Of a stretch of 14,515 nucleotides of DNA, positions 8,759 to 9,463 are shown piece by piece (positions within the stretch are counted from its first letter, which is position 1; the number at the start of each line of letters is the position of its first letter). A model generated the notes under the pieces. That model worked only from the letters and a program-made list of their open reading frames with translations. It was not told where the DNA came from and searched no databases. A program made the position numbers and the translations under genes. The stretch lies in IMG/VR virus record IMGVR_UViG_2541047895_000006; one strand, given 5' to 3'. This DNA is from a virus (Duplodnaviria > Heunggongvirae > Uroviricota > Caudoviricetes).

Positions 8759-8820
8759 AAAGAAGATTTCCAATAATCAGAACAAGTCGGCTCCTGTTTA
8801 GTTACGAGCGACATTGCTCC

Positions 8821-8848
8821 GTGTATTCACTCGTTGGAATGAATACAC
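8821..8848. repeat. Perfect 9-bp inverted repeat (GTGTATTCA-N10-TGAATACAC) upstream of the plus-strand cargo gene
   Basis: Read directly from the sequence; no adjoining U-run, so more likely a protein-binding or structural site than a terminator. Confidence 0.4.
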
Positions 8849-8907
8849 AGTGCAGTGTTTATTAGTATGCCTGTCTTTTAACCACATCAGGCTCGGTGGT
8901 TCTCGTG

Positions 8908-8952
8908 TACCCCTACAGCGAGAAAAATAGTAAAATCCTCTTACCCCTACAG
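8908..8952. repeat. Two direct copies of TACCCCTACAG (8908-8918 and 8942-8952) immediately upstream of the cargo gene start
   Basis: Exact 11-mer repeated with 34-bp periodicity; the second copy ends 2 nt before the AAGAGAG ribosome-binding site. Confidence 0.4.
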
Positions 8953-8968
8953 TAAGAGAGTGATTTAT

Positions 8969-9463
8969 ATGTCTGATGAAAAAGGAATAATAAGTAGGAT
9001 TACAGATGCAGTTTCTGGTGCCGGAGGTGCTCTGATGAGTGCTGTTGGCGCAGTAAAGGAAATCCAGAAAATGCAAATAGACTACTCAGTAAAAGAAAAA
9101 ACATACGAACTTGTCGATAAGCTCATGGATGCCCAACAGCAGCAAATGTCACTTAATGAGCTTTTGATGATTTCTAAGGACAAGATTATTGAGCTTGAAG
9201 AAAAGATAAATCGAGCCTCTAAGTGGGAAGAGGAAAAGAAAAACTATGAGATGTATACACCTACTGTTGCTACGGTGGTTTATCGTCTCAAAAAATCGGC
9301 AAATACCGGTCAGCCAATGCACTATCTTTGCGCTCAATGCTATGAATCTTCTGTGAAATCCATACTTCAATACGAAGGATTTGCACCACCTTCTAACCAT
9401 AGGATGAGATGCCATAGGTGTAACGCCTCCTATCTGTTCCCTAAATCTGCATTTTCTAAATAA
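8969..9463 (+). CDS. Hypothetical 164-aa protein, non-lambda cargo in the ral/sieB slot: Gly/Ala-rich N-terminal segment, Gln-rich coiled-coil-like middle, C-terminal CxxC-x23-CxxC zinc-ribbon-like motif
   Basis: ATG at 8969 with AAGAGAG 8 nt upstream (track ORF begins at in-frame GTG 8960). Translation [36 protein letters not shown]...[11 protein letters not shown]...[20 protein letters not shown]. Opposite strand to the pL operon; 3' end overlaps the N stop by 8 nt; AT-rich. Confidence 0.65.

What the first reader, a model, noticed from the sequence alone, without database searches (positions are those of the whole stretch)
8759..9463. Unrecognised plus-strand gene replacing ral/sieB between ea10 and N, overlapping the 3' end of N
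Between ea10 and N, where lambda carries ral and the exclusion gene sieB, this prophage has an AT-rich segment with one 164-aa ORF on the opposite strand to the pL operon. It has a good ribosome-binding site (AAGAGAG 8 nt before ATG 8969) and its last 8 nt overlap the stop of N (9456-9463). The protein has a Gly/Ala-rich N-terminal stretch ([16 protein letters not shown]), a Gln-rich coiled-coil-like middle and a C-terminal CxxC-x23-CxxC motif; I cannot place it in a family. A gene expressed against early lytic transcription in the slot used by other lambdoid phages for exclusion or anti-restriction functions is a plausible prophage-encoded exclusion, abortive-infection or defence factor. The convergent overlap with N also suggests antisense interference during induction.
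Basis: partly seen in the sequence, partly recalled or inferred. Interest (0 to 1): 0.78.

Follow-up and report, generated by a model that had tools for sequence, protein, structure and literature searches.

The report
Known prophage defence gene rip1

Summary
The ORF at 8969-9463 (+) exists as described: 164 aa, AAGAGAG ribosome-binding site 8 nt upstream, an 8-nt 3' overlap with N, and a CxxC-x23-CxxC motif. It differs at 1 of 162 aligned residues from PDB 9OOX, [quoted passage not shown] (released 2026-02-04). That entry holds 12 Rip1 chains and 11 small-terminase chains. A 2025 meeting report attributes Rip1 to the Maxwell lab as a prophage protein that blocks incoming phage, with a proposed pore mechanism. 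A 2026 preprint lists it as a small-terminase sensor. The family is phrog_1244. It includes HK620 HkaP and Pseudomonas JBD30 gp30, and has about 3000 cluster representatives at 50% identity. Compared with lambda, ral/orf28 is deleted. The sieB coding sequence is replaced by rip1 behind the same conserved sieB-type promoter and leader; the P22-mapped RNA start aligns to about 8943. Rip1 is not homologous to SieB. The overlap with N is not conserved in Pantoea or Proteus prophages, so the antisense idea remains untested. The defence guess was correct, but the gene is already known and RefSeq still calls it hypothetical. Interest as a discovery is low. I could not read the primary Rip1 paper.

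The parts
8969..9463 (+). rip1 coding sequence (164 aa plus TAA); HK446 gene 037 equivalent
   Evidence: ORF; annotated CDS in E. coli 2015C-4136CT1 and HK446; 161/162 aligned residues identical to PDB 9oox Rip1; phrog_1244, E 4e-53
8954..8960 (+). Shine-Dalgarno-like AAGAGAG, 8 nt before the ATG
   Evidence: read directly from the sequence; the GAGAG core is kept upstream of HK620 hkaP and the 689R2 homolog
8868..8953 (+). conserved sieB-type promoter and leader cassette, shared by unrelated genes of this slot
   Evidence: 87% identical to the 86 bp just upstream of lambda sieB, 97-99% to HK620 hkaP upstream, about 83% to phage 689R2/606R2; overlaps the annotated P22 sieB promoter and RNA start
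8932..8937 (+). putative -10 hexamer TAAAAT (aligned to TAAACT inside the annotated P22 sieB promoter); the P22 RNA start aligns to about 8943
   Evidence: alignment to the annotated P22 features; inferred by homology and not measured here; the simple sigma-70 scan did not call it
8910..8918 (+). first copy of the twin CCCCTACAG repeat (-35 region)
   Evidence: 2 copies in the window against 0.04 expected; the pair is kept in lambda, P22, HK620, HK446, 689R2 and a Pantoea prophage
8944..8952 (+). second copy of CCCCTACAG, immediately after the homology-mapped RNA start
8999..9055 (+). codons 11-29: small-residue-rich, marginally hydrophobic N-terminal segment ([19 protein letters not shown]); candidate membrane-inserting or pore segment
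   Evidence: highest Kyte-Doolittle 19-residue window, 1.28, with small-xxx-small spacing S16-G20-S24-A28; low AF2 confidence; 126 residues are modelled in 9oox chain M, which would fit residues 39-164 (inference)
9083..9238 (+). codons 39-90: single long helix (coiled-coil stalk)
   Evidence: AF2 model H39-90; matches 9oox chain M with TM 0.86 normalised to the target
9245..9442 (+). codons 93-158: C-terminal beta-rich domain with four-Cys zinc-ribbon-like motif (C121, C124, C148, C151)
   Evidence: AF2 strands, pLDDT 80-88; the four Cys are the only invariant columns among 50 diverse relatives; weak Zn_ribbon_4 hit
9456..9779 (-). antitermination gene N (neighbour; convergent; 8-nt overlap with the rip1 3' end)
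   Evidence: 96% identical to lambda N region
8739..8760 (-). tL2A-type intrinsic terminator of the pL operon, left boundary of the cassette
   Evidence: terminator scan; homologous position annotated tL2A in HK620

Best explanation
The gene is rip1 (ring interacting pore 1), a single-gene anti-phage defence carried by lambdoid prophages in the sieB slot.

Shown by others, as far as I could verify from the PDB record and secondary reports: Rip1 of phage HK446 binds the ring-shaped small terminase (TerS) of the T-even phage T6. The stoichiometry is 12 Rip1 subunits capping an 11-subunit TerS ring. Rip1 blocks replication of incoming phage.

Shown here: the window protein is that protein with one substitution, Y96 for H96. 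It sits in a lambda-like prophage at ybhC in E. coli 2015C-4136CT1. It has replaced the sieB coding sequence behind a conserved sieB-type promoter and leader.

Inferred mechanism: Rip1 is made constitutively in the lysogen as a soluble, inactive protein. Late in infection by a sensitive phage, TerS rings appear. The C-terminal four-Cys beta domain docks on the ring, and the ring templates a 12-mer held together by the long helices. The twelve small-residue-rich N-terminal segments, now clustered, insert into the inner membrane as a pore. The cell is de-energised before progeny are completed, which is abortive infection.

Also inferred: the gene's own phage is spared, either because its TerS is not recognised or because convergent pL transcription silences rip1 after induction.
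For: Identity:
- phmmer against the PDB gives E 1.4e-105, with 161/162 aligned residues identical to 9oox chain L 'ring interacting pore 1 (Rip1)', 12 chains.
- The entry title is 'Escherichia phage HK446 Rip1 in complex with the Enterobacteria phage T6 small terminase', released 2026-02-04.
- The same entry holds 11 chains of a T4 gp16-like small terminase.
- The DNA is 99% identical to HK446 over 8733-9827.

Function:
[quoted passage not shown] It describes an 11-subunit terminase capped by 12 Rip1 monomers and a proposed pore-based defence.
- bioRxiv 10.64898/2026.04.30.721860 lists Rip1 among systems that sense the small terminase.
- The homolog JBD30 gp30 (30% identity, E 6e-26, same phrog_1244) is listed as an anti-phage moron, citing Tsao et al. 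2018 (PMC11445458).

Architecture:
- The AF2 model shows a disordered or low-confidence N-terminus, helix 39-90 and a beta domain 93-158. It matches 9oox with TM 0.86.
- The four Cys are invariant.
- The N-terminal segment has a Kyte-Doolittle mean of 1.28, below the level of a constitutive membrane helix.

Expression:
- The upstream 86 bp is homologous to the P22 and lambda sieB promoter and RNA start.
- Homologs in Pantoea and Proteus prophages sit in the same antisense slot next to N and the repressor.
Against: - I could not read the primary Rip1 paper. It is not in the held library. [quoted passage not shown]
- The assignment of the pore to the N-terminal segment is my inference.
- That segment is poorly conserved outside the enterobacterial subfamily. 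It is only marginally hydrophobic.
- Valentova et al. summarise the Pseudomonas homolog as blocking genome injection. That does not fit sensing of a late cytoplasmic protein.
- The promoter and RNA start are mapped by homology only, and the consensus promoter scan did not find them.
Confidence: 0.85

Rival explanations
1. Rip1 acts as a stoichiometric terminase inhibitor. By capping the TerS ring it blocks DNA packaging, so it is an assembly-blocking defence like Tab. No pore forms, and the cell dies only from the invading phage's own lysis genes.
For: The only structure-level fact I could verify is a Rip1 cap on the TerS ring. The meeting report words the pore as a suggestion. A prophage defence from the same lab, Tab, works by blocking virion assembly. 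Tab occupies the slot used by the Rip1 homolog in Pseudomonas phages (PMC10884400). The N-terminal segment is not a clear transmembrane helix.
Against: The depositors named the protein 'ring interacting pore'. The conserved architecture, with a small-residue-rich N-terminal helix on a long stalk, is unnecessary for a simple cap. Constitutive low-level prophage expression would have to titrate an abundant late protein.
Confidence: 0.12
2. It is a classical superinfection-exclusion protein that blocks DNA entry at the membrane, as stated for JBD30 gp30.
For: PMC11445458 (text and Appendix Table S1) lists JBD30 gene 30 as 'blocks phage genome injection (Tsao et al, 2018)'. HK620 hkaP was annotated 'putative superinfection exclusion protein'.
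Against: The near-identical protein was solved bound to a late, cytoplasmic phage protein and is cited as a TerS sensor. There is no signal peptide or convincing membrane helix. The HK620 note is a positional guess. I could not read Tsao et al. to check the wording.
Confidence: 0.03
3. The gene's main role is regulatory. Its convergent transcript, overlapping the 3' end of N, modulates N/pL expression, and the protein is secondary.
For: There is a real 8-nt overlap, and no convincing + strand terminator lies after the stop. An antisense RNA switch (sas) is known for P22 sieB from my own knowledge of Ranade and Poteete 1993, which I did not check here.
Against: The overlap is absent in Pantoea and Proteus homologs and in lambda sieB. 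The protein is strongly conserved, with about 3000 representatives and invariant Cys. It also occurs in Mu-like Pseudomonas phages that have no N gene.
Confidence: 0.02

Closest known systems
Rip1 (ring interacting pore 1) of Escherichia phage HK446, PDB 9OOX
   Same: It is the same protein: 161/162 aligned residues identical and the same 164-aa length. It has the same flanking DNA, 99% identical over 8733-9827 including N, and the same slot and orientation.
   Different: There is one substitution, Y96 here against H96 in the deposited chain. The host element here is a lambda-like prophage at ybhC with lambda exo/bet/gam/cIII/ea10, not the HK97-like HK446 backbone.
HK620 HkaP and Pseudomonas Casadabanvirus gp30 (JBD30 gene 30, D3112 orf25, DMS3 homolog); phrog_1244
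   Same: They belong to the same family, with the same length (164 aa) and the same architecture and four Cys. All are antisense morons inside a lytic operon. HkaP uses the same upstream cassette, 97% identical over 8731-8971.
   Different: Identity is only 27-30%. The Pseudomonas genes sit between the phage's own small and large terminase genes rather than next to N. Their triggers are not known to me.
SieB of lambda and P22 (phrog_6399), with its Esc self-immunity
   Same: It occupies the same slot, the same strand and the same conserved promoter and leader. It is likewise a prophage-expressed protein that aborts infection by other phages.
   Different: There is no sequence or profile similarity. 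SieB is longer and has an annotated internal-start Esc protein. I found no evidence for an equivalent in rip1.
Tab (tail assembly blocker) of Pseudomonas phage JBD26
   Same: It is a small single-gene prophage defence with its own promoter. It occupies the same terminase-flanked moron slot as the Rip1 homolog in sister phages, and it targets a late virion-assembly protein (PMC10884400).
   Different: It is an unrelated 83-aa protein. It targets the tape measure protein, is paired with an anti-Tab gene, and is not proposed to form a pore.
Other terminase-sensing defences (Avs1-3, TerI)
   Same: They use a conserved packaging protein of the invader as the trigger (bioRxiv 10.64898/2026.04.30.721860).
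   Different: Avs1-3 are large STAND NTPases that bind monomeric large terminase. Rip1 is a 164-aa protein with no NTPase and binds the oligomeric small-terminase ring.

Membership tests
Rip1 / phrog_1244 | Sequence homology to HK446 Rip1 | tested here: met
   161/162 aligned residues identical to 9oox_L, E 1.4e-105; phrog_1244 E 4e-53
Rip1 / phrog_1244 | Fold: long helix plus C-terminal four-Cys beta domain matching the solved chain | tested here: met
   AF2 model (pLDDT 69.7) matches 9oox_M at E 1.7e-17, TM 0.86 normalised to the target, rmsd 2.6 A over 126 columns; the four Cys are invariant in 50 relatives
Rip1 / phrog_1244 | Prophage-encoded moron with its own promoter, antisense to a lytic operon | tested here: met
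   Lambda-like prophage at ybhC; sieB-type promoter by homology; same arrangement in HK446, HK620, Pantoea, Proteus and JBD30
Rip1 / phrog_1244 | Binds a phage small-terminase ring (12:11 complex) | not testable with these tools
   Known for the HK446 protein from PDB 9oox chain counts; expected here from the single-residue difference but not measured
Rip1 / phrog_1244 | Confers phage resistance and forms a pore on activation | not testable with these tools
SieB (phrog_6399) | Sequence or profile homology to lambda or P22 SieB | tested here: not met
   BLASTP E 9.4 against lambda SieB; hhalign probability 0.8% against P22 SieB; different PHROG
SieB (phrog_6399) | Slot between the tL2 terminators and N, + strand, sieB promoter | tested here: met
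SieB (phrog_6399) | In-frame internal start giving an Esc-like self-immunity protein | not tested
   Internal Met codons exist (M23, M35, M53 and others), but I made no test for an internal ribosome-binding site or its conservation
PADLOC-DB v2 (2023) defence systems | Match to any catalogued defence protein model | tested here: not met
   Only PDC-M53B at E 0.019, 12.8 bits; Rip1 post-dates that release

The most novel reading that the evidence does not exclude
The roughly 86-bp element upstream (8868-8953) may be more than a promoter. It carries twin CCCCTACAG repeats around the -10 and an upstream pair of overlapping inverted repeats. It could be a portable expression-and-silencing module of the lambdoid sieB slot. 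It would drive whichever unrelated defence gene (sieB, hkaP or rip1) is plugged in behind it during lysogeny. It would also let the prophage's own pL transcription shut that gene off after induction, by collision or by an antisense RNA like P22 sas. That would supply the self-immunity for which Rip1 has no dedicated partner gene. The Pseudomonas homologs, embedded antisense between their phage's own small and large terminase genes, would use the same logic.
Probability: 0.2. Interest if true: 0.4.

Novelty: already known. Interest (0 to 1): 0.2.

Why it matters
As a discovery it adds little, because Rip1 already has a name, a cryo-EM structure and a proposed mechanism.

Three practical points follow:
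- **Annotation gap.** RefSeq/PGAP, GenBank phage records, Pfam, NCBIfam and PADLOC v2 all still leave this gene as hypothetical or unmatched. It is present at 99% identity or more in 96 of 5,426 complete E. coli genomes. The family has about 3000 cluster representatives at 50% identity.
- **A modular slot.** The locus shows a clean exchange of one defence gene (sieB) for an unrelated one (rip1) behind a shared promoter and leader. That element could be used as a handle to mine this slot for further defence genes.

Tried and rejected
**Profile libraries.** Pfam gave only sub-threshold hits: PDE12-like_N, Zn_ribbon_4 and DUF6943. PADLOC v2 gave nothing significant. NCBIfam 20.0 gave nothing.

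**Homology to SieB.** Rejected by BLASTP, hhalign and different PHROG membership.

**Known RNA family for the upstream element.** The Rfam evalue-mode scan of the whole window found only the lambda cIII thermoregulator and two chance-level hits. Single-sequence folds of 8862-8972 on either strand are not exceptional, with z -1.6 and -1.7.

**Consensus promoter scan.** It found no sigma-70 site upstream of the gene. The only hit, 8964-8991, overlaps the start codon. The promoter assignment therefore rests on homology to P22.

**Literature.**
- The 'hkaP' search returned only noise.
- 'ring interacting pore' returned nothing.
- Several Rip1 searches found only secondary mentions.
- Tsao et al. 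2018 is not held.
- A Chem Rev hit was irrelevant.

**Tab.** I considered Tab as the identity of the Pseudomonas homolog. I rejected it because Tab is an 83-aa protein found only in JBD26 and JBD24.

Full report
**Observation**

- Reading the sequence and the ORF list confirms a plus-strand ORF ending at 9463.
- Its ATG is at 8969 and it encodes 164 aa. An in-frame GTG lies at 8960, but PGAP and the HK446 record both use the ATG.
- AAGAGAG occupies 8954-8960, 8 nt before the ATG.
- N is a lambda-type 107-aa protein at 9456-9779 on the minus strand. Its stop is at 9456-9458, so the two genes overlap by 8 nt.
- The four cysteines are C121, C124, C148 and C151, giving CxxC-x23-CxxC.
- GC content is 0.40, against 0.50 for N.
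- The description is accurate in every detail.

**Where the window comes from**

- The window is 100% identical to E. coli 2015C-4136CT1 chromosome NZ_CP027550.1, positions 232329-246843.
- It covers the left arm and immunity region of a lambda-like prophage integrated next to ybhC.
- The gene order is int, xis, exo, bet, gam, kil, cIII, ea10 (DUF2528), the ORF, N, a LexA-family repressor, cro-like, cII, O, P, ren and nin genes.
- PGAP calls the ORF 'hypothetical protein' (WP_001278766.1).

**Identity**

- Pfam, PADLOC v2 and NCBIfam give nothing significant. PHROGs places the protein in phrog_1244, function unknown (E 4e-53).
- The same gene at 99-100% identity is in phages HK446 (gene 037), ev099 and vB_EcoP-720R6.
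- It is also present in 96 of 5,426 complete E. coli genomes, always chromosomal and nearly always annotated beside N.
- A profile of 18 relatives searched against PDB sequences hit one entry at E 8e-83.
- The single sequence matches 9oox chain L, 'ring interacting pore 1 (Rip1)', at E 1.4e-105. Of 162 aligned residues, 161 are identical; the difference is Y96 here against H96.
- Foldseek of my AlphaFold2 model returned the entry title: 'Cryo-EM Structure of the Escherichia phage HK446 Rip1 in complex with the Enterobacteria phage T6 small terminase', released 2026-02-04. The match has TM 0.86 normalised to the target and rmsd 2.6 A over 126 columns.
- The entry has 12 Rip1 chains. A search with T4 gp16 shows it also has 11 small-terminase chains.

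**What is published about it**

[quoted passage not shown] - A 2026 preprint on Avs2 and Upx names Rip1, with TerI, as a system that senses the small terminase subunit.
- The primary paper is not in the held library, so I could not check host range, escape mutants or direct evidence for the pore.

**Family**

- HK620 HkaP is 164 aa, lies in the same slot and was annotated in 2001 as 'putative superinfection exclusion protein'. It is 27% identical.
- JBD30 gene 30 is 164 aa and 30% identical (E 6e-26). Both also fall in phrog_1244.
- Valentova et al. (PMC11445458) list JBD30 gp30 as a moron that 'blocks phage genome injection', citing Tsao et al. 2018. I could not read Tsao et al.. That wording fits poorly with a sensor of a late cytoplasmic protein.
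- In the Pseudomonas phages the gene lies antisense between a DUF1804/HTH protein and the large terminase. Patel et al. call these flanking genes the small and large terminase. It is the same slot that holds the unrelated 83-aa Tab in JBD26 (PMC10884400).
- An exhaustive HMMER search with the 18-sequence profile found 2,975 cluster representatives at 50% identity with E<=1e-3, and 1,397 with E<=1e-10.
- In an alignment of 50 diverse members, the only invariant columns are the four Cys. Nearly invariant are L76, W86, Y93, L95, Y105, H118 and L133.

**Architecture**

- The AF2 model has mean pLDDT 69.7. Residues 1-25 are low-confidence, one long helix spans 39-90, and a beta-rich domain spans 93-158 with pLDDT 80-88.
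- The solved chains contain 124-126 residues. That would fit residues 39-164 being ordered and the N-terminus unresolved; this is inference.
- The most hydrophobic 19-residue window is 11-29 ([19 protein letters not shown]). Its Kyte-Doolittle mean is 1.28, below the usual level for a constitutive membrane helix.
- That window has small-xxx-small spacing at S16-G20-S24-A28. This suits a soluble protein whose membrane-active segment only works when many copies are clustered. It is my reading, not a demonstrated fact.
- The segment is weakly conserved outside the enterobacterial branch.

**Locus anatomy**

- BLAST of the window against the fetched loci shows lambda homology at 98% over 7308-8863. 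It then jumps to the 86 bp immediately upstream of lambda sieB (window 8868-8953, 87%) and resumes at 9456-10001 (N, nutL).
- Relative to lambda, positions 34056-34395 (ral, orf28) are deleted. The sieB coding sequence (34482-35036) is replaced by rip1.
- Lambda sieB is also on the + strand and abuts N.
- The upstream element is shared by lambda and P22 sieB, HK620 hkaP, HK446 rip1 and the 53%-identical homolog of phage 689R2. In 142 phage records it mostly precedes sieB.
- P22's record annotates the sieB promoter and RNA start inside this element.
- By alignment, the -10 corresponds to TAAAAT at 8932-8937 and the RNA start to about 8943, giving a 26-nt leader.
- Twin CCCCTACAG repeats at 8910-8918 and 8944-8952 flank the -10. 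They occur 2 times against 0.04 expected. The pair is conserved in lambda, P22, HK620, HK446, 689R2 and a Pantoea prophage.
- No Rfam family matches the element. Its single-sequence folds are unremarkable.
- Rip1 and SieB are unrelated proteins.

**The antisense idea**

- Homologs in Pantoea and Proteus lambdoid prophages sit in the same antisense position within the leftward operon, next to the N-like gene and repressor. They have gaps of 3 and 25 nt rather than an overlap.
- The overlap itself is therefore incidental.
- What is conserved, in both lambdoid and Mu-like phages, is placement antisense within a strongly transcribed lytic operon.
- That placement could silence the gene during the prophage's own lytic growth. 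This is plausible and has a precedent in P22 sieB/sas (my own knowledge, not checked here). It is untested.

**Verdict**

- The feature is the already characterised defence gene rip1.
- The residual open points are the promoter and leader cassette, the basis of self-immunity, and whether Rip1 forms a pore or only caps the terminase ring.

Noticed in passing
window 8868-8953 (also L003:1897-1982, L006:1201-1285, L002:3138-3222, L005:3899-3983, L011:~4900-4990): An 86-bp element is far better conserved than its flanks and precedes two unrelated gene families, sieB and rip1/hkaP. It holds twin CCCCTACAG repeats 34 nt apart. It also holds two overlapping inverted repeats, GCCTG...CAGGC and AACCAC...GTGGTT, upstream of the P22-annotated sieB promoter. 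Conservation reaches well upstream of a normal promoter, so it may carry an additional regulatory or recombination function.
   Followed up: partly
window 8937-8959: A hairpin (CTCTTAC/GTAAGAG stem) is scored as terminator-like on both strands. It overlaps the rip1 Shine-Dalgarno sequence. On the minus strand it is followed by a U-rich tract, so it could act as a tL1-type pause or terminator for pL transcripts leaving the rip1 antisense region.
   Followed up: no
L004:4001-4495 (JBD30 gene 30) with neighbours L004:4501-5001 and 2317-3969: The Pseudomonas Rip1 homolog is encoded antisense directly between its own phage's small and large terminase genes. The small terminase is the protein class that HK446 Rip1 is reported to sense. 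This may be a coincidence of a moron hotspot, or it may be relevant to self-avoidance.
   Followed up: partly
window 8864-8867 junction (lambda 34056-34395 missing): The ral and orf28 genes of lambda are cleanly deleted. HK620 and HK446 share the same junction, so this prophage lacks the Ral restriction-alleviation function.
   Followed up: partly
window 4173-5341 and 3135-3738: An IS3-family transposase with programmed frameshift is inserted in the prophage's left arm next to a TraR/DksA-family gene. A frameshifted hypothetical gene lies at 3135-3738. Both point to some decay of the prophage.
   Followed up: no
window 10161-11147: The immunity region is not lambda's. It has a LexA-family (S24 peptidase) repressor and a small HTH cro-like gene, with no rexA/rexB between N and the repressor. 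In this prophage, Rip1 is the only annotated candidate exclusion gene within the window's early-left and immunity regions.
   Followed up: no
window 8226-8284 (-): Rfam Lambda_thermo (cIII thermoregulator) matches at 88.5 bits. This is an ordinary lambda feature and confirms the cIII assignment.
   Followed up: yes
PMC11445458 Appendix Table S1 versus PDB 9oox: There is a literature inconsistency. The JBD30 homolog is summarised as blocking genome injection, whereas the E. coli protein is solved on a small-terminase ring. Either the summary is loose or family members act at different stages.
   Followed up: partly
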